Source: a virus
Virus record (IMG/VR): IMGVR_UViG_3300030119_000552
Coordinates: 11,803-75,802 of that record
Length of the DNA: 64,000 nt
Reading direction: 5' to 3' (one strand)
Shown here: piece after piece, positions 5,622 to 50,915 of the stretch
How positions within the stretch are numbered: the first letter of the stretch is position 1
Layout: each line of letters opens with the position of its first letter
Made by a program: the position numbers and the translations under genes
Notes under the pieces: generated by a model
The model's input: only the letters and a program-made list of their open reading frames with translations
Told to the model about the DNA's origin: nothing
Database searches by the model: none

Positions 5622-5647
5622 CTATAAATATATACATTCTTATTAAA

Positions 5648-17982: not shown

Positions 17983-19200
17983 TCAATTCTTTTTCCAAAT
18001 CCAAATTGGTTCTGCGAATGCAACATCTTTGGTTTCTTCGGTAATTTCCTTAAGGCCTTCCGAAAAATACTCACTCTTGGCATTTCCTGCACCACCTGAA
18101 TTAAATCGTTTCGTCATTTCCATTCCAATGCAACCAAGATATTCAAGACCTTGTGATTTAATAAAGTCATTCATTGGATTTGTAATTTCAACATAGTCGT
18201 TGATGGGAGCATTAAATACATCTGCGATATTGATTGCAAGAATACCACTCTTCTTTATTGTCGGAATTATCTTACCAAGTGTAGTGTGAAGAAACTTCTC
18301 GTTCCAATCATCTATTTTTTTATATCTCACCCAAGATTGCGTATCATCTTCCGAATACTTTTCTGTATTAAAATATGGTGGACTTGTAAACACCGTATCA
18401 AAGTAATTTTCGTATTGTGAGTAATCTACGTCTTCGGCAGGACTTTCTATTAGGTCTACTTTTCTATCTTGTTCAAAAAAGGTAGAATACTTTTCATAGA
18501 ACTGAATTTGCTTTTGGTAGTTAGGATGATTAAGTGTATTGGGATCGATTCCAACATAATGCTCTGTGGTTTCACCTGTATAAAATCCTGCTAGTCTATC
18601 ACCCCATCCTGCACTAAAGTCTAATATGTTCTTGCTTTGAAAGTGATCGTAAAATGCTTTTGCTACTGCCGGTTTGAATTGTGATGCGACATACTTGCGA
18701 AGAGTGGTAGCAACACGGAGAGTGTTAATATCGACTTGATTAAGAACTTTATCTAACGTCCAATAAGCACGAACGATTGTTTTGATTCCTTTTACTGTTT
18801 GCCAAGTTTTCCAACCACTTGGAGTTCTTGTCCAATCTACTTTCCAACGAGTTTCTACATGAAATGGATTGGAAGCATTATTACCAGAATTGTTTCTTTT
18901 CAACAGAAACTGAGAATCTTTGTAGTTAAGGTGGTAGTTGCTTTTTCTTTCATTGCGAGGAAACCACTTTTTTTCTACAAGTACATCATTGTGCTTTATT
19001 CCTTTTAACTTATTCAAACTATCAAGAGTTTGTTTATTTGTAATTTTAGGTAGTGGAGCGGGATATGTGTGTAATACTTTTGCCAATTCTTCTACAACAT
19101 CTTCTTTTTCATACTTTTGCATAATGTCTTTCCACTCATCCTCTTCAATGAGGAGATATGGTTTCATGTTGTAGAACTTTTTGAAATGCTCTTGTAGCAT
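17983..19200 (-). CDS. DNA methyltransferase-like (DFSAGWG / FTSPPY family)
   Basis: ILDFSAGWGDRL, YVGIDPN, FTSPPYF-EKY, C-terminal EPIWIW. Same family as the genes at 31.5-34.7 kb. Confidence 0.85.
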   Translation of the reverse strand: MLQEHFKKFYNMKPYLLIEEDEWKDIMQKYEKEDVVEELAKVLHTYPAPLPKITNKQTLDSLNKLKGIKHNDVLVEKKWFPRNERKSNYHLNYKDSQFLLKRNNSGNNASNPFHVETRWKVDWTRTPSGWKTWQTVKGIKTIVRAYWTLDKVLNQVDINTLRVATTLRKYVASQFKPAVAKAFYDHFQSKNILDFSAGWGDRLAGFYTGETTEHYVGIDPNTLNHPNYQKQIQFYEKYSTFFEQDRKVDLIESPAEDVDYSQYENYFDTVFTSPPYFNTEKYSEDDTQSWVRYKKIDDWNEKFLHTTLGKIIPTIKKSGILAINIADVFNAPINDYVEITNPMNDFIKSQGLEYLGCIGMEMTKRFNSGGAGNAKSEYFSEGLKEITEETKDVAFAEPIWIWKKN

Positions 19201-19814: not shown

Positions 19815-19848
19815 AGTAATAAATATATATGTATGTATTTATATTTTA

Positions 19849-22368: not shown

Positions 22369-22400
22369 TTTTTAGTTTAAAGTTATATTTATATATTCAC

Positions 22401-23482: not shown

Positions 23483-23513
23483 CTTTTTTGTAATAGATAT
23501 ATATTTATTATAC

Positions 23514-24656
23514 ATGAAGTCCGAAAATATTGTTTGTGAAGAGTGGAAGGGGTATCGTCCCAATATGCCTGTTCAAGTTGTTGGTGTAAAAAACGGAAAG
23601 ATTACATCCAATGGTGGTGGAGTTGAAGTATTTAAAAATCTCAAGGATGCACAGAAAAAGTATTCAGACCTTGATCATGAAGAAAATTCAAAGAGATTCA
23701 CTTGGGTTATGCGAGGAGAGGTCAATGGAAAAGATGCCGGACGATTTGAAACATGGCAAGCAAATAAAATGTATTCTATGGAAGAGCAAACATTCCAAGA
23801 TACAATGAAAGAAGCAAAATTTAATTCTCGTATTCTACCTGCTAATGTGGAAGACCTTGAAATGAAAACTTTAATTGTTGCAATCGGAAGTGCAGTTGTT
23901 GGGTTGCTAGATAAAATAAAAAAGAACACGGGATCAAATGCTAATCCAGTAAGTTTGCAAGTTATCAAAGGTGGAGATGCTATTAAATCTGCACTAAAAA
24001 GTCAAATGGATTTGAAAGGTAAAGATGCTCTTGTTGCGTTCTTCAAAGAAACAAATAAACACTTTGATGCGTCTGCTCCTGTTATATCAAGTATAGTGAG
24101 GAAATATAAATTGAAATCAGATAAGTATAGTGGTAAGGTATTCGCAGAACAAGAAACAAAATTACGTGAACTTGTTCGTGGTTATTTAAAAAAGATGTCA
24201 GAAAAGGTAGATGTAAACATTCCTGATAACATAGTTGATTTACAGGATCGTATTGCCCAAAAGAAGAACGATGTTTTTTGGTGGGAAAAGCAATTACAGA
24301 AATCAAGAAAGAATAGTTTAATTGCGATGCGGTCAATGCACCACCAACAAGCAAAGAAAGATTTAAAAGATTTGGAAAAAGCACTTAAAAAAGCACAAAA
24401 GAACGAGTCAACCGAAGAACCGATTGAAGAAGCAAAGAAAAGTAAAATGATTCCTATGGAAAAGTACGGAGCTGCCTTTATGGTTGATAATGGAGTTCTT
24501 TTATCTGTTCCTATGTTGCGTGATGGTGGGTTTGAAACCTTTGGTGGAGAACTTGATTGGGGTGAAGTAACTGCTCCGGAATCTCAAAAATTTCTTGATG
24601 ACATCAACAAAAAATTTAAGACGAAGTTCAAAATGAATGACTTCGCAGGTAGATAA
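23514..24656 (+). CDS. hypothetical segmented protein (internal virion protein candidate)
   Basis: Start at 23514 after ATATTTAT; Lys-rich segments separated by Glu-rich linkers. Confidence 0.6.
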   Translation: MKSENIVCEEWKGYRPNMPVQVVGVKNGKITSNGGGVEVFKNLKDAQKKYSDLDHEENSKRFTWVMRGEVNGKDAGRFETWQANKMYSMEEQTFQDTMKEAKFNSRILPANVEDLEMKTLIVAIGSAVVGLLDKIKKNTGSNANPVSLQVIKGGDAIKSALKSQMDLKGKDALVAFFKETNKHFDASAPVISSIVRKYKLKSDKYSGKVFAEQETKLRELVRGYLKKMSEKVDVNIPDNIVDLQDRIAQKKNDVFWWEKQLQKSRKNSLIAMRSMHHQQAKKDLKDLEKALKKAQKNESTEEPIEEAKKSKMIPMEKYGAAFMVDNGVLLSVPMLRDGGFETFGGELDWGEVTAPESQKFLDDINKKFKTKFKMNDFAGR

Positions 24657-24985
24657 TGTATAAATTGGGTGAATCCAACATTCACGGGCATGGTTTAATT
24701 GCTACTGAAGATATTGAACCAAATGTAGATATTGGATTAAGTCATATTGGTATTGGTTTGGTGAATGGAAAAGTTGTTGCCGGTGAAGCAACCGATATAG
24801 GCAATTTTCAAAATCATAGCAATACACCAAATTGTGTTAATAGGATTGTAGACAAAGACCTACATATGGTTACCACACAAACAGTAAAATGTGGAGACGA
24901 ATTGACTGTAAATTTTTACGAAAATACAAATATTTGTGTTAACATAGAAAACTCCGAAAGTTGGAATAAAAGTCAATTTTTATAA
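24656..24985 (+). CDS. SET-domain protein (lysine methyltransferase-like)
   Basis: S-IHGHGLIATEDI, NHSNTPNC, GDELTVNF. Confidence 0.85.
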   Translation: MYKLGESNIHGHGLIATEDIEPNVDIGLSHIGIGLVNGKVVAGEATDIGNFQNHSNTPNCVNRIVDKDLHMVTTQTVKCGDELTVNFYENTNICVNIENSESWNKSQFL

Positions 24986-25360: not shown

Positions 25361-26914
25361 ATGACTAAACCAACTTGCTCAGACGAAACTTGCTCATATC
25401 CAGAGACGTGTGACTGGAATAATATGTGTATGGCAGACCAATTAGAAATAGGTAATGAAGTAAGAATGTATGAAACCTCAATTGATAAGATTGGGGTTCT
25501 TTTGTGTCATGGTTTTTTATCAAAGCACGAACAGATGGTCCCACTCAGCAATTATATATACGAAACACTTGGTTGGGAAACAAGTTTGGTTGAACTAACT
25601 GGACATGGTTATGATGAAGAAAATATTACAAGTGCAACTTGGTCTGATTGGGTGGATGACGTAAAAACCAAGTATTTGAATCTCAAACAAAGATGCGATA
25701 AAGTTTACATGATTGGATTTTCGTTGGGTGGTTGTATATCTGCATATGTTGCAAGTTTGAAAAGCATCAAACCCGAAGGACTGATAATCATAAACGGAGT
25801 GTTTGGTGTAAAGAATGTTTTCAATAAACTTCTTCCTGGTGTTATGATATATAATAAAGTTTGCAAAAAGTTAAAACTACAAAAGATTATGTTGGAATCC
25901 ATTACCAATGATAGTGAGGCACCTGATTTGAACCAACCTCTTGTCAATTTATATGCTACAAACGAACTTCGTAAGATGTCCAAAATTACAGGCACTATAT
26001 TGAAAGACATAAGATGTCCCACTTTCTTGATTCAGGAATATAACGATCCAACTGTATTTTATGGAAGTGGGAAACGAGCATTTAAAAAATTGGGTGCAAC
26101 CTTCAAAAGATTTCACACAACAAAACTGAATACCCACCTTACCATTTACGACAAAGGAATGGAGTGTAATGTATTTTGTAAAATTTTGGAGTTTCTGAAA
26201 GATGTTGAAAAAGACACATTTCTAAATATTGCTCACCGTGGTGCAAGTGGTGATTTTACCGAAAACACATTACAGGCATTTGAGGAAGCAATTCGACGTG
26301 GGTGCGATGCTATTGAATTTGATGTACAACCAATTGGTAATCAATTCCGAGTATTTCACGATGATAACTTTAAAAGAATGTTTGGTGTTGATAAAGATTC
26401 AAATAAAATAAAAGAAAGTGAAGTAACCAAGTTGGTTTACCCAAATTTAGAAAAAATACCCACACTACAAGAAGCACTTGATTGTATTGCAGGTAGAGTT
26501 CACATAAACATTGAGATAAAGAGTTCAGAAGTTGCTACAAACATTGCTAATATTACAAGAACTTATCTTAAAAAACCAGAGTGGAACAACAAAGACATAG
26601 TACTTTCAAGTTTCAGTAATGCCACTGTTAATATGCTAAGAAGACATTACAAGGAATTAAAGTTATCGTACTTGGTTTACGATCACTATTGTAATTTAAA
26701 AGATATGAAAGTTTTGAAAAGCAATTACTTTAGATATAATCTTCATTCTCTGAATCTTCCGTTGGAAGGTATTACACCTGAAATTGTAGAGTATTGCAAC
26801 AAAGATAATATACAGATATATGTATATACCGTAAATGAAACTAAACAAATTCGTTATTTAAGAGAACTTGGTGTAAGTGGAGTATTTACTGACTTTCCAA
26901 GATTGATACGATAA
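25361..26914 (+). CDS. alpha/beta-hydrolase (esterase/lipase) fused to glycerophosphodiester phosphodiesterase
   Basis: N-terminal LLCHGF, GHG, GFSLGG, D..H. C-terminal IAHRGAS, ENTL, IEFDV, HDD, NIEIK, YTVN, GVFTDFP. Confidence 0.9.
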   Translation: MTKPTCSDETCSYPETCDWNNMCMADQLEIGNEVRMYETSIDKIGVLLCHGFLSKHEQMVPLSNYIYETLGWETSLVELTGHGYDEENITSATWSDWVDDVKTKYLNLKQRCDKVYMIGFSLGGCISAYVASLKSIKPEGLIIINGVFGVKNVFNKLLPGVMIYNKVCKKLKLQKIMLESITNDSEAPDLNQPLVNLYATNELRKMSKITGTILKDIRCPTFLIQEYNDPTVFYGSGKRAFKKLGATFKRFHTTKLNTHLTIYDKGMECNVFCKILEFLKDVEKDTFLNIAHRGASGDFTENTLQAFEEAIRRGCDAIEFDVQPIGNQFRVFHDDNFKRMFGVDKDSNKIKESEVTKLVYPNLEKIPTLQEALDCIAGRVHINIEIKSSEVATNIANITRTYLKKPEWNNKDIVLSSFSNATVNMLRRHYKELKLSYLVYDHYCNLKDMKVLKSNYFRYNLHSLNLPLEGITPEIVEYCNKDNIQIYVYTVNETKQIRYLRELGVSGVFTDFPRLIR

Positions 26915-26941
26915 AGTTGTTTTAATATATATTTATTTCGT

Positions 26942-28498
26942 ATGGATGTTGTCCAACACTATTTGTCGGGATTTGATTTGCACGAAGTTACTTCTAATTT
27001 AAAAGAATTATTGCACGAAGCTGCCACTACAAATGCTTCGGATGCCGAGGTTGCTATTTGTGTTGCGTACAACATCAAACAAGGTAAAAAAGAAGCAGAT
27101 GCTCTTAAATCAGCAGGTGTAGACAAAGCAACTTGGAAAAAGATTAAAGCAAACAAAGCAGTATACAATGCAGGTAAAAAAGTTGCGAAAGGATTAAAAA
27201 ACATCGGTGGATCATTAACATGGTCTGGTAAAACATCTGCTACTACATTTTACAAAAGTGGAAAAAAAGAAGCAGGTAAAGCAGATATAATTGGTAATAA
27301 TCGCAATAGACTTTCTGTAAAACAAGCAAGCAGTTCTGCAAAAAGTGCTCAACTTGTTAGTGGTACGTCTGGTGAAGCAGTTGGATTATTCGAATATGCG
27401 GTAAAGCATTTAGAAGCAAGTGGAAGAAAACTTGCAAATGATTCCGAGTTAAAAGATTTATTTGACATACTTGAAAAAGAAATGGCAAAAGCAGTTCGCA
27501 ATGACATCAATGTTGAAGTTGGAAAGGGTAAAAAAGATTTTCGTGATTGGGTAATTGCCGACAGTGGAAGGTATGATGAAGTTAAAGCAAAAGCAAAAAA
27601 TGCGACTGACGAAGAAATCAAAAGACATATTCGTGCAGAACTTGCGGTTGCAAATGCTATATCTAATGCCGATGCTCCAAAACTTGAAGGTGATTATATA
27701 AAAGGAGTTAAACCTATTACTCAAAAGCAGATTTCTAAAATGAGAGCAGATTATATTGGTTCGGATATGAAGATTGGTGATGTTACTATTGCAAAAGACT
27801 ATCTCGAAAAAGCAAATGTTCCGTCTGAATTATTAACCAAAGAAGCACTTAGAACACAAATAATGGATTTGATTGATGTGGCATTAAAAGCAGATTCTTG
27901 GAAAAATCGTATTCGTGAAATTATACAAAACAACTCGGAACTTAAAAAGTGGATCGTTTACGAGGCTGCAAGTGGTCTTGGAAAGTTTACAGGTAAAGCA
28001 TCTAAAGGTGGAAATTATTTTGGTGATAATGTTGCAGTTGCAAATAAAATACTCGTATTTGATGCTAATGGTGTAAAAAAAGTACATGACCTGTACAAAT
28101 GGTCGCAAAGCAACGGAGATTTGTGTAATAATGTTGATATAAGTTTCAAAGGAAGTGGAAGACGTAAATTTGTAAAATTTGGATTGGCTGCTGAATCAAT
28201 AGAAAATGATATTAGTAATATCATCAATGAACAATATTTTGAATTTGAAAAACAACTTAAAGTTTTGAACGAAGGAAAAGTTTGGGATACCATAAAAAGT
28301 GGTTTTGATTCTGCTTCGTCTTGGGTAAAATCTTCTTATGAAAAAATAGAAGCATTAATTTTACAATTCTATGAAAGTGTAATAAAGAAAGTTCTTGATT
28401 ACTTTTGGGAACTATTTCAAAAAGGATTAAGTCCAGTTTTAGAAAAAATGGGATATATTATGGAAGGAGTTGTTTCTTTATCTGTTCCCATTTGGTGA
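26942..28498 (+). CDS. Putative PD-(D/E)XK-fold nuclease 1 (D...SxK variant) with leader and amphipathic tail
   Basis: AEVAI...KADII...LSVKQ...QLVSG...EA, VYEAASG..KF; paralog of the next gene. Confidence 0.55.
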   Translation: MDVVQHYLSGFDLHEVTSNLKELLHEAATTNASDAEVAICVAYNIKQGKKEADALKSAGVDKATWKKIKANKAVYNAGKKVAKGLKNIGGSLTWSGKTSATTFYKSGKKEAGKADIIGNNRNRLSVKQASSSAKSAQLVSGTSGEAVGLFEYAVKHLEASGRKLANDSELKDLFDILEKEMAKAVRNDINVEVGKGKKDFRDWVIADSGRYDEVKAKAKNATDEEIKRHIRAELAVANAISNADAPKLEGDYIKGVKPITQKQISKMRADYIGSDMKIGDVTIAKDYLEKANVPSELLTKEALRTQIMDLIDVALKADSWKNRIREIIQNNSELKKWIVYEAASGLGKFTGKASKGGNYFGDNVAVANKILVFDANGVKKVHDLYKWSQSNGDLCNNVDISFKGSGRRKFVKFGLAAESIENDISNIINEQYFEFEKQLKVLNEGKVWDTIKSGFDSASSWVKSSYEKIEALILQFYESVIKKVLDYFWELFQKGLSPVLEKMGYIMEGVVSLSVPIW

Positions 28499-28526
28499 TA
28501 AACTTTTAAAGTATATATTTATTGTC

Positions 28527-30152
28527 GTGGACATTGTAGAGCATTTTATCAAAAATATTGATTCATCTTTTGAGGTAGATGATATTTTATGCGAACTTGC
28601 ATTACATGATTTATTCAAAAGAGACAATAAACAAAGGTTTATTGATAAGGTTGATAACAACGAAATGCTTGATGATAAAAATAATCCACTTAAACTAAAA
28701 AGTGGAACTACATCTTTATGGAATGATATGAAAAAACAACTTTTATCTGCGAAAGATAAAGACGGAATATCTGATTGGGGTGGTCGTGGTGATACTAAAA
28801 TAAAACAACTATTTGGTGTACCTATCAGTAAAATAGGCAAATCACAGAATGATATGAGTGGTGGTGCTAGTAGTGGAAATCCAAGTGGTGAAGATTGGGA
28901 AGCAATGATTGCTATTGGACTTGCCACTATTGAAAACAAAGACCCGTCAAAAGAAGTGCCAGATGAATGGTCACGAATAGAAAGAAAAGGTTTTTGGAAT
29001 AGTGATTTTAATCGTGACATTGCCGAAAAACTTGCAACTGCATTTAAAAAGAATGGATACAATCCAATTTCTCAAACAGGAAGTGGAAAGGGTGGTGCTG
29101 GTGTATCAGGTGAGTGGGGAGATATTTATAAAGAATACGGAAGTGGTTCTATGAACAAAACTCCGAAGACTGACATTAAAGGTGGGTCAAAGAAAATCTC
29201 TTTAAAGAAAGCAGGTGGTTCTCAAGCAATGAGTGCCAAGCAAGCAGAAGCAGCCGCAACATTTGGAGCAGCCGTTAGAATGTATGGCAAGAATTATCCA
29301 AGTAGTGTTAATACTATTTTAGATAAATTTAAAACTTCTGTGTTGGATTTATCTGATAGTAATTATCGTGGAAGCATTGATGCTCTTGAAAAAGATATTA
29401 AAAGTAGTCAAGGTGATCCAAAGAAAATGAGAAATTTAAAACCCGTGATCGACAATTTAAAACAAGCACGTGACGATGGTAAGTTTATTACTTCGGAAAT
29501 GAATCGTGTATTTTTGTCTGATTCTAAGTTCAAAAATTTATTTGTATTTGAAGCAGCCACCGGTTCTGTTAAATTTGGTGATACATCAGAAAGTCGTGCT
29601 GATACAATGGTTGAAATTGATACTGATAGTGGTAAGATTACATCTCAATATAAAATGGACACACCAAATGACATTTCTTCTCTTGCCAATCAATACAAGT
29701 TTTATTTGTCATTCAAAACAAGTGGTAATAGTGTTCCTTATATGGCACTGCGAGGGAATATGGAACAAGACCCAAAGAAGGTTACGGGTTGGATGAAAAA
29801 TCAACTAATGGAAAATAAAAACTTTTCAACGATATGTCCAACTTTTTTCAACATCATTAAAGAAGGATTTGAACAAGATGCTTTTGGTAAAAGACTTTTA
29901 AATGAATCAAGTTTTCAAAATCTAAACGAGTGGCAAATGCTAAAAAAAGTTCGTGACGGAATTACTTCTGTTAGCAACAAAGTAAAAGACCGTTTTGTTA
30001 AAATTTGGAATTGGATTTCTGAAAGAATATCCAAGGCATTTGATTGGATCAAAAAACAAGGTGCAAGAGCATTAGAATATTTGCAAAAGTTTTTTGGAAT
30101 CAAACTTGACAAGTGTGGAATAAGTGGAAAGTTAGAACTCTTTTCAAAATGA
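28527..30152 (+). CDS. Putative PD-(D/E)XK-fold nuclease 2
   Basis: GTG start 4 nt after ATATTTAT. WEAMI...PKTDI...ISLKK...SQAMS...EA, VFEAATG..KF. Confidence 0.6.
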   Translation: MDIVEHFIKNIDSSFEVDDILCELALHDLFKRDNKQRFIDKVDNNEMLDDKNNPLKLKSGTTSLWNDMKKQLLSAKDKDGISDWGGRGDTKIKQLFGVPISKIGKSQNDMSGGASSGNPSGEDWEAMIAIGLATIENKDPSKEVPDEWSRIERKGFWNSDFNRDIAEKLATAFKKNGYNPISQTGSGKGGAGVSGEWGDIYKEYGSGSMNKTPKTDIKGGSKKISLKKAGGSQAMSAKQAEAAATFGAAVRMYGKNYPSSVNTILDKFKTSVLDLSDSNYRGSIDALEKDIKSSQGDPKKMRNLKPVIDNLKQARDDGKFITSEMNRVFLSDSKFKNLFVFEAATGSVKFGDTSESRADTMVEIDTDSGKITSQYKMDTPNDISSLANQYKFYLSFKTSGNSVPYMALRGNMEQDPKKVTGWMKNQLMENKNFSTICPTFFNIIKEGFEQDAFGKRLLNESSFQNLNEWQMLKKVRDGITSVSNKVKDRFVKIWNWISERISKAFDWIKKQGARALEYLQKFFGIKLDKCGISGKLELFSK

Positions 30153-31258
30153 AAAATATAATTGAGCACTTCTTAGAAAAAAATGTATCTGAGGCATATA
30201 ATATTGTTCCAAATTCTGTGGAAGAAATTGATTCACTCAAAAATACCGCAGTTGATATTGAAACTATAAAGTCGGTTTATTCTTATATATTTTCTAAAAA
30301 CTCTTCACTTGCAAACCCTATTGCAGTTAGTTCCAATTCGAAAGAAAAACACATAAAAGTTGCAAGAGACATTGCGGACGATTTCGATTTAAATTCACTA
30401 TCTAAAAAGTTCGGAGTTAAGTTAACGGCAGGTGACGGTTCACGTGGTCGCCGTGGTTCAAATAACCAAGGAACTGGGTTTGAGAAGGATCTTGTAGACG
30501 ATATAAATCTATTCATCGAAGAGGGAATTGAGTCAACGTCGTTCAAGTATCCATCTTTAATACAAGACTTGTATAAAGACATACTTTCCAAACACAAAAG
30601 CATTCAAGTTAATTTAGAGGGAGGTGCTAACACAAAACGACCACTTGAATTTACCGAGATAGGTGCTGTTATAGGTGGTACTGCAATTAACGTTGGTCAC
30701 GTGGTTACTGATGTTACTATAATCGGTGACGGAACTACATACTACTATTTATCTCTAAAAAGCTCAGGTACCGTCACCTTTTTCAATTGTGGTGTCAGAA
30801 AAATTTTAACAAAAGACCAATTTGAAAATGGAAAAATTACTAACAAAAATGGAAAAACAATTTTAGATATGTTTGGTATTGACGAGAAAAAATTTATTAA
30901 CATTTTTCAATCATATAAAGGTAAAACAAAAAAACGTAGTAAAAAAGAAACCGAGGATGTTACTTCCAAGGTAAACAAAAGATCTCTTCACAGAATGTTG
31001 CTCACTGGAATTGGATATGGATATTATATGCTTCATAAACGAGGAAAGAATGTTGAATACTATAAAATGAATGTGGCAAATCTTAAAAAATCTGTAAAAG
31101 TTAAGAAGGTGGTGATTCTATGGCCTGCTCCAGGTTCTGCAAAAAGAATTGATATTCAGATTTTAACTGACAAGTATGTGTTTAAGGTAAATATAAGAAA
31201 TAAACAGGGTGGTTTATATCCTACTCACATTATGTGTGATTATAGGTATATACAATAA
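30149..31258 (+). CDS. Putative PD-(D/E)XK-fold nuclease 3
   Basis: ATGA overlap with the previous gene. GFEKDL...VTDVTI...YLSLKS, C-terminal VNIRNKQGGLYPTHIMCDY. Confidence 0.6.
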   Translation: MKNIIEHFLEKNVSEAYNIVPNSVEEIDSLKNTAVDIETIKSVYSYIFSKNSSLANPIAVSSNSKEKHIKVARDIADDFDLNSLSKKFGVKLTAGDGSRGRRGSNNQGTGFEKDLVDDINLFIEEGIESTSFKYPSLIQDLYKDILSKHKSIQVNLEGGANTKRPLEFTEIGAVIGGTAINVGHVVTDVTIIGDGTTYYYLSLKSSGTVTFFNCGVRKILTKDQFENGKITNKNGKTILDMFGIDEKKFINIFQSYKGKTKKRSKKETEDVTSKVNKRSLHRMLLTGIGYGYYMLHKRGKNVEYYKMNVANLKKSVKVKKVVILWPAPGSAKRIDIQILTDKYVFKVNIRNKQGGLYPTHIMCDYRYIQ

Positions 31259-31288
31259 TTACTTTTTGTAAAACACAAAGATAGGTTC
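31259..31288 (-). pseudogene. Remnant 3' end of MTase gene (EPIFVFYKK*)
   Basis: Encodes the same last 9 residues plus stop as both MTases (31508, 33082); DNA nearly identical. Confidence 0.75.
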
Positions 31289-31291
31289 TGT

Positions 31292-31462
31292 CTATGAAGT
31301 TTGAGTTTCTAATTGAACTCTGACATACGGTTCACCCGTTTCCTCTTCATCTATATCGGCAATGTTGCAATTTACCAACTTTAAGGGTAATTTTTCAACC
31401 GACCCATCTACCTCAAACGAACATAGATCGTTTCCAAAGTAATCTTCTATTTTAATTTTCAT
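31292..31462 (-). CDS. small hypothetical protein (56 aa, not in ORF track)
   Basis: MKIKIEDYFGNDLCSFEVDG...VQLETQTS*; own promoter TTGACT-17-TATATT at 31469-31497. Confidence 0.65.
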   Translation of the reverse strand: MKIKIEDYFGNDLCSFEVDGSVEKLPLKLVNCNIADIDEEETGEPYVRVQLETQTS

Positions 31463-31507
31463 ATATATAATATAATATTATTATTATAATAAGTCAAGGT
31501 ATTTATA

Positions 31508-33085
31508 TTATTTTTTGTAAAACACAAAGATTGGTTCGTACTTGTGCAACTCTCCGTTTATTTGACAACAATTTTTGATTGTGGTTCTATCTCCACGCAT
31601 TGTTGCCATAAGCATTTTAAGAGTTTCAACATACTCAAGACCGTATTCTTGTAAAATGTTTTTGCTATCTTCTTCAAGTGGTATATATCCACCATCGTGA
31701 GTGATGTCCGCAATATTCCACAATAAATACCTGTCGTTTCTTAAATATTGAGATGCAGTTTTTAATGTGGGACGAAGAAAGTTTTCTTTCCAATCTTCGT
31801 ATGATGGAAACTTCTTGAAACTTTGTGTGTCATCTGATGAATATTGTTCACGATTAAAATAAGGTGGACTTGTAAATACTAAATCAAATGTTCCTTTATA
31901 CTTTTCAAATTCTTTGTTTCGGTGAATAACCTCACTTCCTTCTTGAAACAAGTCGTATGTATTGCGATGACCAAAGAACGGATTACCACCATTTGTTTTG
32001 TCGTTGAAAAAATCTGCTACATATTCGTATCTTGATTTGTTAAGTTCATTTATATAGTTGTCTGTATTTGGGTCTGTTCCAACATAATGTATTTGACGAT
32101 CATCTATGCTCATAGCACCAAGTATTCTTCCTCCCCATCCTGCACTTGGATCATATACAGTGAGATCATTTTTGTTTTCAATGTGGTCTGTATATTTTTG
32201 ATAAACGAATTTTGCAGTTAATGGTGGAAAGTTTACGGCAGGATGTCTTCCGAGTCCAAGACGAAGTGCTTCCATGGCCGATGGAAAGATAGTTGATGTT
32301 TTGTCGTAGTAACGAACACTAAATTTATATTGAGTTTCATCAAGTGTATCAAGTTTATCAAAGTCTGTATTAAAGTCTGTTGTTTTTTCTAAATTGCTGA
32401 TATTGTTGTGTTCAAGAAGGCCTTCTTTATACAACCGAAGTATTTGTTGAGCAGATAACAATAAATGATTTTCTTCATAGTCTTCAAACTTTCTTTCGGT
32501 GAAAAGTTCAATAATCCAAAAGTCATTGTCGGGATATAAATGTTTTTCTGCTATAAAGTTTCTAATCCAAGTTTCTCCATCGTTCGTTGGATATGGTACT
32601 TCATCATCGTTTTTTCTGATTGTTTTTCCGTGAGCAAAAAAAGCATCTCGTCTAATTGTTCTTCTCATTGTGACGTGGAAACTATCTCTTTTATCTGGAT
32701 CAACAAAATAGTCGTAAATGCTTTCTGAATGTGTACCGGTTTGCAATGCCATTTTCGTTTTAAGCATTGTTGGAAAAAACTGATCAATAACCGTTGCGAA
32801 CTTGTTAAAGTTTTTTATGATTGTGTTTGTTTTGTCAAGTTCATCAATATGTAAAAACTTGCTAACATCATATCTTTGTAGTTTATTAAATTGTGCAATA
32901 ATATCTTTTTCGATTTTACCACTTCTTGGTGGAATTCCTTTTTCATTCCAAGTAGTAACAATATAATCTCTTAAATCATCCAACCAAATTTCAAGTTCCT
33001 CTTTGCTTTTTAAAAGTAACTGATGGAAGGTTGTGTTTTGCTCCCAATCTACGAGGTTGTTTTTCTCGTAAAAATATTTCTTCAT
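31508..33085 (-). CDS. DNA methyltransferase-like paralog B
   Basis: Start MKKYFYEKNN (ATGA overlap). VNFPP, YDPSAGWGGRILG, GTDPN, FTSPPYF. Confidence 0.85.
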   Translation of the reverse strand: MKKYFYEKNNLVDWEQNTTFHQLLLKSKEELEIWLDDLRDYIVTTWNEKGIPPRSGKIEKDIIAQFNKLQRYDVSKFLHIDELDKTNTIIKNFNKFATVIDQFFPTMLKTKMALQTGTHSESIYDYFVDPDKRDSFHVTMRRTIRRDAFFAHGKTIRKNDDEVPYPTNDGETWIRNFIAEKHLYPDNDFWIIELFTERKFEDYEENHLLLSAQQILRLYKEGLLEHNNISNLEKTTDFNTDFDKLDTLDETQYKFSVRYYDKTSTIFPSAMEALRLGLGRHPAVNFPPLTAKFVYQKYTDHIENKNDLTVYDPSAGWGGRILGAMSIDDRQIHYVGTDPNTDNYINELNKSRYEYVADFFNDKTNGGNPFFGHRNTYDLFQEGSEVIHRNKEFEKYKGTFDLVFTSPPYFNREQYSSDDTQSFKKFPSYEDWKENFLRPTLKTASQYLRNDRYLLWNIADITHDGGYIPLEEDSKNILQEYGLEYVETLKMLMATMRGDRTTIKNCCQINGELHKYEPIFVFYKK

Positions 33086-34671
33086 TTCTTGTAAAACACG
33101 AAGATAGGTTCGTACTTTTGTAACTCTCCGTCTATCTTGCAACAATTCTTAACCGTTTCTGCTTTAACACCACGCATTGTTGTCATAAGCATTTTAAGAG
33201 TTTCAACATACTCAAGTCCGTATTCCGCAAGAATATCACGACTATCTTTTTCTAATGGCATAAATCCATCTCCATCTGCAATGTCTGCGATATTCCAAAG
33301 CAAGTATCTATCGTTCTTCAAATATTCGGCAGCCGTCTTCAAAGTAGGACGAAGAAAGTTATCTCTCCAATCTTCATACTCTGGAAACTTTTTGAAACTC
33401 TGAGATTCATCTGCTGAATATTGTTCACGATTAAAATATGGTGGACTCGTAAAAACCAAATCAAGTTTGCCTTTGTATTTTTGGAAACTTGGATTTTTGG
33501 AAATTTCCTCACTTCCGTCTTGGTAAACATCATAAGTGTTACGGTGACCAAAGAACGGATTACCTCCGTTTGTTTTATCATTAAAAAAGTCGGCAAGATA
33601 TTCATAACGACTTTTACCAAGTTCATCAATATAGTTGTCGGTGTTCGGATCAGTTCCTATATAGTGAATTTGCCTATCATGTACTGACATAGCACCAAGA
33701 ATACGACCACCCCAACCTGCACTTGGATCATATATATGAAGATTGTTTTTGTCTTCAATGTGGTCTGTGTATTTTTGGTATATATATTTTGCAGTCAACG
33801 GAGGAAAGTTTACTGCTGGTTGACTAAGACCCAACTTAAATGCTTCCATTGCCGATGGAAAAATTCTTGAGTTCTTGTTATAGTAACGAATGCTGAAACG
33901 AAATTCTACTTCTTTGTCATCTTCAAGTATAACATCATTTATATTTTCAATATCATCACCAAAGTTTGCAGTTCTTTCTAGATTTCTGATGTTATTGATT
34001 TCAAGCAAACCTTCTTTGTGAAGTTTTTTAATTTGCTTTGCGGTGAGCATCAAACTACTTTCTTCATATGAATCAAACTTCTTTTCGGTGAATAACTCAA
34101 TGATCCAAAAGTCGTTGTTTGGGTGTAGGTGTTTTTCTTTTACAAAATTCCTAACCCACTCTTCTCCGTCTTCGGTTGGACAAGGAACATCATAATCATT
34201 TTTCTTGATTGTTTTACCGTGTGCATAAAACGAATCTCGTCTTACCGTTCGTCTCATGCAGGTGTGAAAACTTTCTCGTTTCTCTGAATTGGCAAAGCAA
34301 TCATATACACTCCACGACGTGTGTTTGCTTGAACCTATTTTTGTTTTAAGCATGGTTGGAAAAAACTGGTCTACTACCGTTGCAAACTTGTTGAAGTTTT
34401 TAACGATTGTCATTGTTCCGTCCATTTCATCTTTGTGTAAAAACTTATAGGTTTTATATCCTGCTAACTTGTTGAAGTTGGCAATTATGTCTTTTTCGTT
34501 TTTACCTGTTCGTGGAGGAAGACCTTCTTTATCCCATGTTTCAACTATATAGTTTCTGAGTTCATCTATCCACTCTTCTAACTCTAAACCATTCTTTTGT
34601 AAAAGTTCGTGGAATGTAATATTAACCTTACACTCTGTTAAATTGTTTTTCTCGTAAAAATATTTTTTCAT
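33082..34671 (-). CDS. DNA methyltransferase-like paralog A
   Basis: Same motifs; colinear and highly similar to paralog B along its full length. Confidence 0.85.
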   Translation of the reverse strand: MKKYFYEKNNLTECKVNITFHELLQKNGLELEEWIDELRNYIVETWDKEGLPPRTGKNEKDIIANFNKLAGYKTYKFLHKDEMDGTMTIVKNFNKFATVVDQFFPTMLKTKIGSSKHTSWSVYDCFANSEKRESFHTCMRRTVRRDSFYAHGKTIKKNDYDVPCPTEDGEEWVRNFVKEKHLHPNNDFWIIELFTEKKFDSYEESSLMLTAKQIKKLHKEGLLEINNIRNLERTANFGDDIENINDVILEDDKEVEFRFSIRYYNKNSRIFPSAMEAFKLGLSQPAVNFPPLTAKYIYQKYTDHIEDKNNLHIYDPSAGWGGRILGAMSVHDRQIHYIGTDPNTDNYIDELGKSRYEYLADFFNDKTNGGNPFFGHRNTYDVYQDGSEEISKNPSFQKYKGKLDLVFTSPPYFNREQYSADESQSFKKFPEYEDWRDNFLRPTLKTAAEYLKNDRYLLWNIADIADGDGFMPLEKDSRDILAEYGLEYVETLKMLMTTMRGVKAETVKNCCKIDGELQKYEPIFVFYKK

Positions 34672-34672
34672 A

Positions 34673-35494
34673 TCAAGCACCAACATTCCAAAACAAAGCA
34701 CCTGGTTTTGCGTGTTCTTTTACAAATTTCCATGCCTTCGCATCATAAGTTGGAGCAGATGGAAATGGTGGCATTTCGTTTTCTTTTATTGCTTTATCAA
34801 ATGAATAATCTGACCTGTAATATGTTGCTCGTCCTATTTCTCTTTCATTCATTTTATGTCCAACAGATACTACACTAACAGGTATCTCAGGAAATGCAAG
34901 TTGTAAACCACGACTAATCGTTCCACTTGAACCAACACTCCATATTTCACTCGGAGGGTTTTTTGATAATGCGTTTCGTGCAACTTTTATAATACTTGCA
35001 ACAACCGTTGGGTGTTCTAACCCAATTGGAAACTCCATTCTGTTTTCTGGATCTTCAGCTACATATTTTTTTGCTCTTGATTTGGTTACTGATAGCATTC
35101 CCATGTTAACCCATTCGTAAATAGCACCAAGTTTCATTCCCCTTTTTTGATATTCGTGGTAGTTCTCTGGATTTCGTTTTGCCATGAACAATATGACCTT
35201 TTTATCATACTTTTTTGCTACAGCAGGTAAAGATATTTGTGCATATCCCGTTGCGGGACAACAACCGAATACTATTTCTTTTGCGGTTGTTTCTTTTATG
35301 AATTTATCAACGAATCTAATTTTGCTTCCGTGGTTTAAAAGGTCATCTCTGACTACATCAATACCATCATAGTTGATAATAACTGGATCTGGATTTGGGT
35401 CTTCCCAATTATCTACCAATTCAAGAAGTTGGTCTTCACTCCACATATTTCCTGTGTTGTCTTCGTATATTGATTCTATAAATTGTGATAACAT
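34673..35494 (-). CDS. PLP-dependent enzyme (fold type II, Trp-synthase-beta/cysteine desulfhydrase-like)
   Basis: VVRDDLL-GSKIR (Schiff-base Lys), GYAQ, VGSSGT-GL, PTYDAKAW, LFWNVG. Confidence 0.8.
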   Translation of the reverse strand: MLSQFIESIYEDNTGNMWSEDQLLELVDNWEDPNPDPVIINYDGIDVVRDDLLNHGSKIRFVDKFIKETTAKEIVFGCCPATGYAQISLPAVAKKYDKKVILFMAKRNPENYHEYQKRGMKLGAIYEWVNMGMLSVTKSRAKKYVAEDPENRMEFPIGLEHPTVVASIIKVARNALSKNPPSEIWSVGSSGTISRGLQLAFPEIPVSVVSVGHKMNEREIGRATYYRSDYSFDKAIKENEMPPFPSAPTYDAKAWKFVKEHAKPGALFWNVGA

Positions 35495-35964
35495 TACCAT
35501 TCCTTTGTGTTTACTTTTTTAGCTCGGGTTTCACTTAGTTCAACTCCCATTAGTTTTCCAAGCAACCTAGTTCTTTGGGAAGGACCTGGATTGCCTTGAG
35601 TGTTGTACATAAAATAACATTTTTTTGCTTGTGTGTAATCAATGTCTTCAAAGTTGGGAAACTGGTCAACTGCCAAATCGACTATTGAATAATCTGGCCA
35701 CATTATGAAACGATGCAATCCATCGTCTCCTGGTATTCCAGGTAGTTTGTATGGTTTAGAACCTCTTGGTGACAAATAGTAATACACGAACTCGGCAATT
35801 ACATAGCAATAGTTTTTGGTTGGGTTGTCTTCTGACCAAGATTCTTTCATTAACTTTGTTTTAAGATGTTGTGTTCCCATACACCTAAGTGATTTGTGTA
35901 ATCTTTCTTTGGTTACACCTGCTAATTTATACATTTCTTGAAGTCGTTCTTCCGAAATTTTCAT
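35494..35964 (-). CDS. hypothetical protein with possible Cys-His-Asp triad
   Basis: NYCYVIAE...LHRFI...IVDLAVDQF. Confidence 0.55.
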   Translation of the reverse strand: MKISEERLQEMYKLAGVTKERLHKSLRCMGTQHLKTKLMKESWSEDNPTKNYCYVIAEFVYYYLSPRGSKPYKLPGIPGDDGLHRFIMWPDYSIVDLAVDQFPNFEDIDYTQAKKCYFMYNTQGNPGPSQRTRLLGKLMGVELSETRAKKVNTKEW

Positions 35965-37247
35965 TCAATATAATCGTCTGCTTCTTTTGTTGGTGGGTAC
36001 AATGTACTACTTTCCACTAACCAATCTCTGAAGTTCTGATTTGCTTTTAGGTCGACAACTAGATGGTATCTATCTTCCGTTCCACCATTGAATGCAGTGT
36101 GTGGTTTTCTCATATCAAGATACCACAACTCACCTTCTTTCATTTTGTCTACCGTTTTAGAACCATCTGTATTCCACAATGTGAATTGAACCTTTGGGTT
36201 TGTTCTGATGGGAAAGTGTACTCTTGCCCATTGATTGTCTGATATACCTGCGTCTTTATCTTGTCGGTCTGTATGACGTTGAAGTTCACCTTCTCCACCT
36301 GCAAGTTTAAGAATTCTGATTCTTTCAAACTCATATGGAAGTAATTTTAAGTACTCTTCTACTGCCGGAAGTTTTTCACGCAACGGAGTGTCTTGAACTT
36401 TCCACTTTAGTTTTTCTGGATTTTCTTTTCTCCATTTGTTGTTCATTTCACTTGGTTTGATGATAAAGTCCCACTCACCTCCGTATCCTGATATGGTGAT
36501 ACCCGACCAAGAATCACTTTTGTTGTAATTAGAATAGTGATTTGAGAAATCTGAATTTACCTTATCTAGTTGTTCCATAATATTCTTTGGATTTGGAATC
36601 TTGGGCATGGCAAGTCTTTGTAAAGCAATTTCCTGTGCAGGATCTATATGTGGGTGTTCTCCACCCTTGAACCAAAATCCGTACATATCTGCGAAACTCG
36701 AAATTAAATTATCTTTGCGTTTGTAACCTATTGACTCAAGAAGTTCACGGATTCTTTTCAACTGCATATCGCATTCTATTACTGTAGTTCCGTCTTCAAA
36801 GAAGTTTCCTTTTGCTTCGTGTTTTTGTATGAGTTTTCCTAACCATTCTTCGTATCCCGGATAACACGCAACTTCTTGTATATAAGAATCGTTGGAACTC
36901 AATGTAATTTCTCTACCGGTGAAACTTACAATTTTCTTTTTCTTGGAGTGCATCTTAGGTATATCGAAGTATAAGATACAGGCTCGTATTTTTCCGTCTG
37001 TATCTTCTACCCAATCAACTTTTTCGTATGTATCTTCTTTATGACCAAGAAGTTTTTGGTTGGTCATGTTGTTTATTTTTCTGAATGGGTCTCTTAAACG
37101 AGGGGAATCTTTAAAAGAATCTTCTGGATGTTGTGTTTCCCAAAAACAACTTAAAAGGTTTTCGTATATAGGACTATCTTCATAAACCCACTTCTTTCCA
37201 TTGTGAAATGGTTTTGGGTATTCGAGTTCGTATTTTCTAAAATTCAT
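35961..37247 (-). CDS. GNAT-like domain fused to Asp/Asn beta-hydroxylase-like 2OG-Fe(II) domain
   Basis: C-terminal RIRILKL, HTD, RVHFPI, GELWYLD-RKPH, RYHLVVD (confident). N-terminal YIQEVAC...LESIGY (GNAT-like, weak). Confidence 0.7.
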   Translation of the reverse strand: MNFRKYELEYPKPFHNGKKWVYEDSPIYENLLSCFWETQHPEDSFKDSPRLRDPFRKINNMTNQKLLGHKEDTYEKVDWVEDTDGKIRACILYFDIPKMHSKKKKIVSFTGREITLSSNDSYIQEVACYPGYEEWLGKLIQKHEAKGNFFEDGTTVIECDMQLKRIRELLESIGYKRKDNLISSFADMYGFWFKGGEHPHIDPAQEIALQRLAMPKIPNPKNIMEQLDKVNSDFSNHYSNYNKSDSWSGITISGYGGEWDFIIKPSEMNNKWRKENPEKLKWKVQDTPLREKLPAVEEYLKLLPYEFERIRILKLAGGEGELQRHTDRQDKDAGISDNQWARVHFPIRTNPKVQFTLWNTDGSKTVDKMKEGELWYLDMRKPHTAFNGGTEDRYHLVVDLKANQNFRDWLVESSTLYPPTKEADDYIE

Positions 37248-37253
37248 CCATAT

Positions 37254-37282
37254 ATTATATGGATTATTTTACTTTCCGTCAA
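37254..37282 (-). promoter_or_regulatory. sigma70-like promoter of five-gene modification operon
   Basis: TTGACG-17-TATAAT, 6 nt before ATG 37247. Confidence 0.8.
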
Positions 37283-50851: not shown

Positions 50852-50915
50852 ACAATATTTATGAAAATATAAAAATATATGTATATTTATTATATATATT
50901 GTTAGCACACAAGGT

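What the first reader, a model, noticed from the sequence alone, without database searches (positions are those of the whole stretch)
26929..37282. Candidate temporally split restriction/modification system: putative late nuclease trio facing a putative early five-gene DNA-modification operon
Seen: three tandem + strand nuclease-like genes converge exactly on a - strand operon. Two of them have ATATTTAT 4-5 nt before the start and the third is coupled by ATGA. The operon starts at a TTGACG-17-TATAAT promoter; its five genes overlap or are 1 nt apart (GNAT-like/2OG hydroxylase, C-H-D protein, PLP enzyme, MTase A, MTase B). Known: R-M genes cluster; T4-like phages package internal proteins that the prohead protease matures after Glu; chloroviruses package restriction enzymes. 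Inference: the phage modifies its own DNA early, then makes nucleases late, loads them in the head and injects them to cut unmodified host or competitor DNA.
Basis: partly seen in the sequence, partly recalled or inferred. Interest (0 to 1): 0.88.

Follow-up and report, generated by a model that had tools for sequence, protein, structure and literature searches.

The report
Head-tagged nuclease genes beside methylase operon
A marine T4-like phage has three restriction-enzyme-like genes that all start with a T4-style "load me into the head" tag, next to a DNA methylase and PLP-enzyme operon, but comparison with relatives does not show that the two blocks form one matched restriction-modification system.

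Summary
The gene layout is real. N1 (26942-28498), N2 (28527-30152) and N3 (30149-31258) face a packed five-gene minus-strand block, but a 56-codon ORF lies between them, and that block continues an 18-kb minus-strand sugar and glycosyltransferase cluster.

N3 folds as a HinP1I/MspI-type monomeric restriction endonuclease (pLDDT 85, Z 10.0), with invariant E112, D188, S202 and K204. N1 and N2 are paralogues in a large unnamed phage family (732 clusters). That family carries an invariant E..D..SxK..E signature, but its fold was not resolved.

Only these three proteins on the contig share the leader M(D/K)x(I/V)(I/V)(E/Q)H(F/Y)(I/L). Relatives start MKTFKQYVLAE, close to T4's MKTYQEFIAE. Close relatives encode a gp21-type head protease. 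Packaging is therefore plausible but unmeasured.

The methylase-PLP link holds independently, because the two are fused in Erythrobacter phages.

Across 12 relatives, nuclease variants, methylase number and tailoring cassette assort independently. Elsewhere these nuclease families sit before DUF6267, not beside a methylase. A cognate, temporally split R-M system is not shown.

Other readers in this scan noted the same family and similar capsid tags on other DNA.

The parts
26928..26936 (+). TATATTTAT motif, ends 5 nt before the N1 start
   Evidence: The motif is over-represented: 15 copies against 1.9 expected.
26942..28498 (+). N1, 518 aa. Paralogue of N2. Leader MDVVQHYL...LLHE precedes the conserved mature part. 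Motifs: E36, D-x9-S-V-K.
   Evidence: hhalign against the N2 family gives 98.8% probability, E 1.3e-16. In distant homologues the 10-11-residue leaders (MKRFSKFLVE, MKTFKQYVLAE) end at E just before the part that aligns with N1. No Pfam or PDB relative. Absent from several clade relatives.
28514..28522 (+). TATATTTAT motif, ends 4 nt before the N2 GTG start
   Evidence: The GTG start is conserved in relatives.
28527..30152 (+). N2, 541 aa. Member of a large unnamed family of T4-like phages. Conserved E125, D216, S225-x-K227, E241, E342, G346, K349, F350 and K397. Conserved LNE site before a Trp/Phe-rich C-terminal tail.
   Evidence: The AF2 model was poor (pLDDT 58) and fold searches were uninformative. 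ESM features point weakly to HaeIII/MspI-type enzymes.
30149..31258 (+). N3, 369 aa. HinP1I/MspI-like monomeric restriction-endonuclease fold at residues 106-369, a small N-terminal domain, and the leader MKNIIEHFLE. Start coupled to N2 by ATGA.
   Evidence: AF2 pLDDT 85. Foldseek HinP1I E 2.3e-4, prob 0.99. VIA Z 10.0, 8.5 and 5.5 against 4.2 for the next fold. Invariant E112, D188, S202 and K204 in 29 homologues. phrog_8438. Absent from all close relatives, but the N2-N3 junction is present in the contigs of three other marine runs, each from a different study.
31259..31291 (-). Orphan copy of the methylase 3' end (TEPIFVFYKK*), in frame behind the TAG of the 56-codon ORF. Direct repeat of 31508-31540.
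   Evidence: Read from the sequence and from the MTB and MTA C-termini.
31292..31462 (-). 56-codon ORF with its own TTGACT-17-TATATT site (31497-31469).
   Evidence: Conserved at 93% identity in two relatives' contigs.
31508..33085 (-). MTB, amino-methyltransferase-like protein. Probable ATG at 33085, inside an ATGA overlap with the MTA stop. Motif I is DPSAGWGGR and motif IV is TSPPYF. Has a ~290-aa N-terminal domain of unknown function.
   Evidence: Pfam N6_N4_Mtase scores 22.9 bits, below the 26.7 cut-off. phrog_12517, phrog_498 and phrog_67. Present or absent among relatives. One metagenome contig joins 31606 to 33184, which gives an MTB-less form.
33082..34671 (-). MTA, paralogue of MTB (about 69% identity). 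The one methylase always found next to the nuclease slot in the clade.
34673..35500 (-). PALP-type (fold type II) PLP-enzyme-like protein, with SKIR lysine and GSSGT loop motifs
   Evidence: phrog_7093, E 1.7e-39. Homologues are fused to, or overlap, N6_N4 methylase genes in Erythrobacter phages ZS04 and R6L and in Microcystis phage Mae-JY30, and they match Pfam PALP.
35494..35964 (-). 156-aa protein of unknown function
   Evidence: Only a sub-threshold YunG match. It travels with the PLP-AspH cassette in relatives.
35961..37247 (-). 428-aa protein with a C-terminal AspH-type cupin oxygenase domain (residues 234-401)
   Evidence: Pfam Asp_Arg_Hydrox, 37.7 bits. A distant homologue sits in the alternative cassette of relatives.
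37254..37282 (-). TTGACG-17-TATAAT promoter-like site. The -35 hexamer lies inside the end of the epimerase gene.
   Evidence: Both hexamers are invariant and the spacer is variable in four relatives.

Best explanation
The stretch is the junction of two convergent, highly variable modules of a marine T4-like myovirus.

Module 1 (+ strand) is an internal-protein-like cargo locus.
- N3 is a monomeric type II restriction-endonuclease-like enzyme with a HinP1I/MspI fold.
- N1 and N2 are paralogues in a large uncharacterised family of T4-like phages. Their invariant E..D..SxK..E pattern suggests the same nuclease superfamily, but the fold is not shown.
- All three begin with one shared leader peptide that resembles the T4 capsid-targeting sequence and contains (L/I/V)xE sites.

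Inferred mechanism for module 1: the proteins are made from TATATTTAT sites that also precede structural genes, loaded into the prohead, trimmed by the gp21-type protease and delivered with the DNA. In the cell they cut DNA that lacks the phage's own modification pattern. The window alone encodes five methylase-like genes.

Module 2 (- strand) holds two SPPY amino-methyltransferase paralogues, a PALP-type PLP enzyme, a small protein and an AspH-type oxygenase. It lies at the end of a long, probably host-polymerase-read sugar-nucleotide cluster. The methylase-PLP association is conserved by gene fusion in unrelated phages. This module therefore probably makes a DNA base modification more elaborate than a methyl group.

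The two modules are constant neighbours in the clade, but their variants assort independently. Self-protection by this particular operon is possible but not demonstrated.
For: Nuclease identity:
- N3 fold. Catalytic-position residues are invariant. The HhaI paper (PMC7026639) describes HinP1I, MspI and HhaI as monomeric enzymes of the PD-(D/E)XK superfamily, and HhaI as having D at the start of beta2 and K at the end of beta3. The N3 model places D188 before strand 189-193 and S202-x-K204 in strand 197-205.
- N1 is homologous to N2.
- The family has 732 clusters with an invariant E125, S225, K227, E241 set and near-invariant D216.

Leader and packaging:
- The leader is unique to N1, N2 and N3 on the 76-kb contig, and to the same slot in two relatives of 152 and 170 kb.
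- Family leaders such as MKTFKQYVLAE and MQGFKTFLSE compare closely with T4 IPII/IPIII MKTYQEFIAE and IPI MKTFKEF....
- The T4 review describes internal proteins as diverse, with only the targeting sequence conserved (PMC3012670).
- A gp21-type protease is present in three clade relatives.
- TATATTTAT precedes the large terminase and other structural-module genes.

Locus behaviour:
- The slot is hypervariable between well-conserved flanks.
- The N3-bearing genotype is present in the contigs of three other marine runs, each from a different study.

Modification module:
- Methylase-PALP fusion or adjacency in other phages.
- Both cassette variants keep PALP plus AspH next to MTA.
- The CmoX/CmoY system (PMC12783734) is a precedent for a methylase homologue followed by tailoring enzymes.
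Against: - There is no expression, virion or cleavage data.
- The N1/N2 fold is unresolved: pLDDT 58, and searches found only helical matches.
- N1/N2 and N3 show no profile similarity to each other.
- N3 matches no Pfam restriction-enzyme family by sequence.
- The second acidic residue of the classic motif is Ser in all three proteins.
- In isolates and other contigs these families lie in the replication region after the gp41 helicase and before DUF6267. That position fits an intracellular DNA-metabolism role equally well.
- Many N3 homologues lack a T4-like leader.
- The contig itself is about 40% complete and shows no protease gene.
- The PLP/AspH cassette adjoins sugar-nucleotide genes and could serve glycan synthesis rather than DNA.
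Confidence: 0.5

Rival explanations
1. One reading: a dedicated, temporally split restriction-modification system. The adjacent five-gene operon makes the specific modification that protects phage DNA from N1-N3, which are packaged and injected.
For: - The nuclease slot and MTA are tail-to-tail neighbours in every clade contig examined.
- N3 has a restriction-enzyme fold.
- The window holds five methylase-like genes.
- The upstream promoter-like site is conserved.
Against: - There is no covariation. The same N2 type occurs with either cassette. The divergent N2 types occur with the PLP cassette, the alternative cassette or none. N1 occurs with or without MTB. N3 was gained with no change in the methylase set on the contig.
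- Outside the clade, N-family genes have no related methylase within 3 kb, and most N1/N2 homologues are followed by DUF6267.
Confidence: 0.2
2. N1-N3 are intracellular DNA replication, recombination or repair nucleases that normally work with the DUF6267 protein. They are not packaged. The shared N-terminus is an ordinary helix or an interaction peptide.
For: - The gene order gp43, uvsX, gp41, N-family, DUF6267 is conserved in S-RSM4, S-CAM1, HTVC008M, Melnitz and many uncultured contigs.
- N2-type and N3-type genes are positional analogues at that site.
Against: - The leader is shared by unrelated folds within one phage, and differs between phages for the same fold. This is the behaviour the T4 review describes for the capsid-targeting sequence (PMC3012670).
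- The slot is hypervariable, which is unlike core replication genes.
- The window's clade keeps N genes although no DUF6267 was found in three contigs estimated 66-84% complete.
Confidence: 0.15
3. The PLP, p156 and AspH genes (and the alternative PALP-AspH-dehydrogenase-AsnB cassette) tailor a sugar or glycan made by the adjoining epimerase, cytidylyltransferase and glycosyltransferase cluster. MTA and MTB are then plain DNA methylases that merely lie at the end of that cluster.
For: - The genes are contiguous and co-oriented with about 12 kb of sugar-nucleotide, sulfotransferase and glycosyltransferase genes.
- One relative has MTA directly next to the epimerase with no cassette.
- No thymidylate-synthase-type hydroxymethylase was found in the clade contigs.
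Against: - PALP homologues are fused to, or overlap, N6_N4 methylase genes in phages that show no glycan cluster in the 5-9 kb regions examined.
- In the 12 clade contigs, whichever cassette variant is present, the PALP gene is the one directly beside MTA.
Confidence: 0.25

Closest known systems
T4 internal proteins IPI, IPII and IPIII with the capsid-targeting sequence, processed by the gp21 prohead protease
   Same: - A short N-terminal leader is shared by otherwise unrelated proteins in a hypervariable locus.
- The leaders are alike: MKTYQEFIAE and MKTFKEF... in T4 against MKTFKQYVLAE, MQGFKTFLSE and MKNIIEHFLE here and in relatives.
- There are Glu-ending sites before the conserved mature part.
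- A gp21-type protease is present in the clade.
   Different: - The cargo here is 370-540 aa and enzyme-like, and N3 has a restriction-endonuclease fold. The T4 internal proteins read here (ipI, ipII, ipIII) are only about 95-195 aa, and IPI* is a nuclease inhibitor.
- The window's own leader (MD(I/V)VEHY) is a diverged version.
- Packaging and cleavage have not been measured.
Monomeric type IIP restriction endonucleases HinP1I, MspI and HhaI
   Same: - The N3 model (residues 106-369) aligns with HinP1I at Z 10.0 (192 residues, rmsd 3.9), MspI at Z 8.5 and HhaI at Z 5.5.
- An Asp lies at the start of one strand and x-K in the next, as described for HhaI.
   Different: - There is no sequence-level membership: Pfam Endonuc-MspI, R-HINP1I and RE_HaeIII give no match.
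- N3 has an extra N-terminal domain and a leader.
- Ser takes the place of the second acidic or polar residue.
- It is phage-encoded, has no demonstrably cognate methylase, and its recognition sequence is unknown.
Virion-associated restriction endonucleases of chloroviruses (recalled from memory, not checked here)
   Same: The idea is the same: a virus carries a restriction-type nuclease in its particle to attack host DNA, while its own DNA is methylated.
   Different: Those are eukaryotic algal viruses with classical R-M gene pairs. Here the virus is a tailed phage, loading would go through a T4-type leader, and no matched methylase has been identified.
CmoA/CmoX/CmoY carboxymethylcytosine hypermodification of Synechococcus phage S-B43 (PMC12783734)
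   Same: In both, a DNA methyltransferase homologue sits next to tailoring enzymes. The alternative cassette in clade relatives includes an asparagine-synthetase homologue, as CmoY is.
   Different: - The methylases here are amino-methyltransferase type (SPPY), not C5 type.
- None of the genes annotated here resembles CmoA (the family was not searched for specifically).
- The conserved partner here is a PALP-type PLP enzyme plus an AspH-type oxygenase.
- The chemistry is unknown.

Membership tests
PD-(D/E)XK restriction endonuclease, HinP1I/MspI structural group (N3) | Alpha-beta-beta-beta-alpha-beta core fold shared with HinP1I and MspI | tested here: met
   AF2 pLDDT 85. Foldseek E 2.3e-4, prob 0.99. 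VIA Z 10.0, 8.7 and 8.5, against 4.2 for the next fold.
PD-(D/E)XK restriction endonuclease, HinP1I/MspI structural group (N3) | Conserved catalytic residues: Glu in helix 1, Asp at the start of beta2, and (D/E/Q/N)xK in beta3 | tested here: inconclusive
   E112, D188 and K204 are invariant and lie in the expected secondary-structure elements. The middle residue is Ser202. I could not superpose side chains on the solved active sites.
PD-(D/E)XK restriction endonuclease, HinP1I/MspI structural group (N3) | Sequence membership of Pfam Endonuc-MspI, R-HINP1I or RE_HaeIII | tested here: not met
   No match on the contig, even at E <= 10. No PDB sequence relative either.
PD-(D/E)XK nuclease superfamily (N1 and N2) | Core fold | tested here: inconclusive
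   The model has pLDDT 58, and Foldseek and VIA-wide found only helical matches. ESM features point to HaeIII/MspI-type clusters at 0.82-0.91, which is a lead only.
PD-(D/E)XK nuclease superfamily (N1 and N2) | Conserved E..D..(D/E/S)xK pattern | tested here: met
   E125, S225, K227 and E241 are invariant and D216 is near-invariant in 52 diverse members. The low-confidence model places D216 before a strand, SxK in the next strand and E241 in the following helix.
T4-type capsid-targeted internal proteins | N-terminal leader resembling the T4 capsid-targeting sequence and shared by unrelated proteins | tested here: met
T4-type capsid-targeted internal proteins | gp21-type prohead protease in the same phage | tested here: inconclusive
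   Peptidase_S77 was found in three close relatives (92-97 bits), but not on this contig, which is about 40% complete.
T4-type capsid-targeted internal proteins | Presence of the processed protein in virions and its ejection | not testable with these tools
   There is no isolate or proteome for this clade.
Type II restriction-modification system (nuclease with cognate methylase) | Nuclease and methylase genes co-inherited and co-varying | tested here: not met
   Variants assort independently in 12 clade contigs, and homologues elsewhere have no related methylase nearby.
N6/N4 amino DNA methyltransferases (MTA and MTB) | SAM-binding motif I, catalytic (D/N/S)PP(Y/F) motif IV, and the Pfam N6_N4_Mtase threshold | tested here: inconclusive
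   DPSAGWGGR and TSPPYF are present. Pfam scores 22.9 bits against a cut-off of 26.7. PHROG methylase families match at E 1e-10 to 1e-14.
PALP (fold type II PLP enzymes) for the 275-aa protein | Match to the family profile, with the Lys and Gly-loop motifs | tested here: inconclusive
   The window protein matches phrog_7093 (E 1.7e-39) but not Pfam PALP directly. Its homologues at 34-36% identity do match PALP at 40-46 bits. SKIR and GSSGT motifs were seen by eye.

The most novel reading that the evidence does not exclude
A tailed phage packages active restriction-type endonucleases in its head through a T4-type targeting leader and injects them with its genome, so host or rival DNA is cut before any phage gene is expressed. 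The phage's own DNA would be shielded by a new methylase-plus-PLP-enzyme base hypermodification. The nuclease slot would then be an exchangeable 'warhead' locus found across marine T4-like phages (732 family clusters).
Probability: 0.2. Interest if true: 0.85.

Novelty: new variant of a known kind. Interest (0 to 1): 0.6.

Why it matters
If the tagged proteins are loaded and active, marine T4-like phages deliver ready-made restriction-type nucleases with their DNA. That would be a new class of injected cargo for tailed phages. It would also assign a role to a large family that has no name today, with members in Pelagibacter and Methylophilales phages; the N3-type family at the same slot has members in cyanophages.

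Separately, the methylase-PALP pairing recurs in unrelated phages, as a gene fusion in the Erythrobacter phages and as overlapping genes in Microcystis phage Mae-JY30. This is a concrete lead to an undescribed DNA modification.

Both ideas can be tested directly with cultured relatives, using virion proteomics, nucleoside LC-MS and cleavage assays.

Tried and rejected
- Megablast of the region against isolate phages found nothing.
- tblastn of N2 against isolate phages found nothing. A shorter family member reached only HTVC008M and Melnitz.
- phmmer and profile searches of N1, N2 and N3 against PDB sequences gave only chance-level hits.
- A Pfam scan of 52 family members found no shared family.
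- Profile-profile comparison of N1/N2 with N3 showed no relation.
- The N2 structure prediction had low confidence. Foldseek and VIA-wide matched only its helical hairpin region.
- The ESM Atlas held no structure for either query.
- Pfam restriction-enzyme families gave no match on the contig at E <= 10.
- No thymidylate-synthase homologue was found in four clade contigs, all incomplete.
- The DUF6267 protein against PDB sequences gave nothing, and no paper mentions DUF6267.
- No RNA holder was listed among public runs, so timing and transcript starts could not be examined. Contigs cannot show transcript starts or ends either.
- I did not check the claims in earlier scan notes that tagged relatives appear in published cyanophage virion proteomes.
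- No complex-prediction job was sent, because I make no binding claim.


Full report
**Context**

The window is 64 kb of a 75.8-kb viral contig estimated at about 40% complete. It carries a T4-type DNA polymerase, a clamp loader, six tRNAs and PhoH. The nearest isolate by polymerase is Microcystis phage Mel-JY01 at 47% identity. Near-identical DNA occurs in marine metagenomes from several studies.

**Observation**

- TATATTTAT is strongly over-represented: 15 copies against 1.9 expected.
- Ten of the 18 copies on the whole contig sit 2-25 nt before a called start codon on the coding strand; the other eight have no ORF of 30 aa or more starting within 30 nt.
- In a 152-kb relative the motif precedes the large terminase and other genes of the structural module. 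A late-promoter role is therefore plausible. At this spacing the mRNAs would be nearly leaderless.

Three points differ from the description.
- A 56-codon - strand ORF (31292-31462), flanked by a direct repeat of the methylase 3' end, lies between the two blocks.
- TTGACG-17-TATAAT exists and is conserved, with a variable spacer, in relatives. However, it sits 21 nt behind the end of an epimerase gene.
- The - strand block runs on through about 12 kb of sugar-nucleotide, sulfotransferase and glycosyltransferase genes, up to promoter-like sites near 49.9-50.1 kb.

**What the + strand proteins are**

*N3.* With a 29-sequence alignment, N3 gave a confident model (pLDDT 85).
- The best solved matches are the monomeric restriction endonucleases HinP1I, MspI and HhaI.
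- Foldseek gives E 2.3e-4 and prob 0.99 for HinP1I. VIA gives Z 10.0, 8.5 and 5.5, against 4.2 for the next fold.
- E112, D188, S202 and K204 are invariant. They lie where this group has its catalytic residues (PMC7026639).
- N3 is not a sequence-level member of the Pfam MspI, HinP1I or HaeIII families.

*N1 and N2.* These two are homologous over nearly their whole length (hhalign 98.8%, E 1.3e-16).
- They belong to a family of 732 clusters at 50% identity, with no Pfam model and no solved relative.
- Conserved positions are E125, D216, S225-x-K227, E241, E342, G346, K349, F350 and K397.
- The K-to-E spacing of 14 residues recalls the Cfr10I/NgoMIV active-site variant. That comparison is from my memory and was not tested.
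- The N2 model was too poor to classify. Language-model features point weakly to HaeIII/MspI-type enzymes.
- I therefore regard the nuclease assignment as shown at fold level for N3 and as probable for N1 and N2.

**The leader**

Only N1, N2 and N3 on the contig begin with M(D/K)x(I/V)(I/V)(E/Q)H(F/Y)(I/L). The same holds for the same slot in relatives of 152 and 170 kb.
- N3 is unrelated in fold family to N1 and N2, and was gained recently, yet it carries the local leader. Its homologues elsewhere carry other N-termini.
- N1/N2-family members elsewhere start MKTFKQYVLAE, MKRFSKFLVE, MQGFKTFLSE or MRSFNQYQEYLAE. Conservation of the mature protein begins right after the Glu.
- T4 IPII and IPIII start MKTYQEFIAE, and IPI starts MKTFKEF....
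- The T4 review states that the internal proteins are diverse, with only the capsid-targeting sequence conserved (PMC3012670).
- Three clade relatives encode a gp21-type protease.

Packaging is therefore a well-founded inference, not an observation. Other follow-ups in this scan reached the same reading for tagged enzymes in other marine T4-like phages. I did not verify the virion-proteome citations given in those notes.

**Synteny**

Across 12 clade contigs the flanking genes are well conserved: GDPD-hydrolase at 60-81% identity and MTA at 90-95%. The slot between them varies.
- It holds N1 plus N2, or N2 alone, or N2 variants at 42%, 40% or 30% identity.
- N3 occurs only in this genotype. 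Contigs from three other marine runs, each from a different study, nevertheless bridge the N2-N3 junction at 99-100% identity.
- MTB is present or absent. One metagenome contig shows an MTB-less recombinant.
- Next to MTA lies one of three arrangements: PLP-p156-AspH; an alternative cassette of PALP, AspH, 2-hydroxyacid dehydrogenase and asparagine synthetase; or nothing.

These states combine freely. Gaining N3 did not change the methylase set on the contig.

Outside the clade the picture is different.
- N1/N2 homologues are followed by a DUF6267 gene in 11 of 12 loci with room.
- N3 homologues are followed by DUF6267 in 11 of 43 loci.
- The pair typically sits after the gp41 helicase.
- No related methylase lies within 3 kb.
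- Some N2 homologues carry an extra N-terminal PAP2-like phosphatase domain.

A cognate R-M pairing is therefore not supported.

**The - strand genes**

- MTA and MTB have motif I (DPSAGWGGR) before motif IV (TSPPYF), plus a 290-aa N-terminal domain of unknown function.
- The 275-aa protein is PALP-like.
- Its homologues are fused to an N6_N4 methylase in Erythrobacter phage ZS04 gp7 and lie under a large 'DNA modification methylase' gene in R6L. In Microcystis phage Mae-JY30 the homologue overlaps the preceding methylase gene.
- This is independent evidence that the PLP enzyme works with a DNA methylase.
- Together with the AspH-type oxygenase, and the asparagine-synthetase homologue in the alternative cassette, it resembles the logic of 'methylase homologue installs a handle, neighbours tailor it' shown for CmoX and CmoY (PMC12783734).
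- The chemistry here is unknown.
- The rival reading, glycan tailoring, is not excluded.

**Verdict**

Its central claim, one matched and temporally split R-M system, is not supported by the comparative data.

Noticed in passing
window 31259-31540: A 30-nt direct repeat of the methylase 3' end (coding EPIFVFYKK*) flanks the 56-codon ORF. The orphan copy is in frame behind that ORF's TAG. One marine metagenome contig joins 31606 to 33184, giving a form without MTB (recombination between the MTA and MTB paralogues).
   Followed up: partly
whole window, e.g. 5624-5632 (-), 19819-19827 (-), 22384-22392 (+), 23500-23508 (+), 50882-50890 (+): TATATTTAT occurs 15 times against 1.9 expected. About half the copies sit 2-25 nt before a called start codon on the coding strand. 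In a relative it precedes the large terminase, while neighbouring genes without it have AGGA-type ribosome sites. This suggests late promoters that give nearly leaderless mRNAs.
   Followed up: partly
L022, L024, L025, L026, L030 (N2 homologues); alignment A2 columns 100-300: In cyanophage-like contigs the N2-family protein carries an extra N-terminal domain with PSYPSGH and SRxxGGVHYPSD motifs, typical of PAP2-type phosphatases. It sits behind an MKRFxxxxxE leader, so the cargo protein has multiple domains.
   Followed up: no
L001 7998-10351; L082 5734-8017; L083 5989-8314; L084: In Kyanoviridae isolates (S-RSM4, S-CAM1, HTVC008M, Melnitz) the gene after the gp41 helicase is either an N2-type or an N3-type protein, always followed by DUF6267 and often by a cytidylyltransferase. 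The two nuclease-like families are positional analogues.
   Followed up: partly
window 25361-26914: An alpha/beta-hydrolase fused to a glycerophosphodiester phosphodiesterase lies directly upstream of the nuclease slot in all clade relatives. It has no capsid-targeting-like leader.
   Followed up: no
window 24656-24985: A 109-aa SET-domain protein (Pfam SET, E 1.5e-7), present in only some relatives.
   Followed up: no
window 5683-6699, 10872-12371, 17983-19200, 31508-34701: There are five methylase-like genes in 64 kb. A 170-kb relative that has only one divergent N2 gene lacks two of them (MT338 and MTB). That record is incomplete, so the correlation is untested.
   Followed up: partly
N1 residues ~440-518; N2 residues ~466-541: The N1/N2 family has a conserved L-(N/D)-E site followed by a Trp/Phe-rich helical tail (invariant L466, E468, W496, F505, F522 and F523 in the N2 alignment). 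This could be a second protease site or an oligomerisation or membrane segment.
   Followed up: no
L004 14799-19419: The alternative cassette next to MTA in several relatives encodes a PALP enzyme, an AspH-type oxygenase, a 2-hydroxyacid dehydrogenase and a glutamine-dependent asparagine synthetase homologue.
   Followed up: partly
window 9111-10229 and 2919-5621: An M29 aminopeptidase homologue sits inside the replication module. A 900-aa protein with a weak reprolysin-type metalloprotease match is preceded by TATATTTAT.
   Followed up: no
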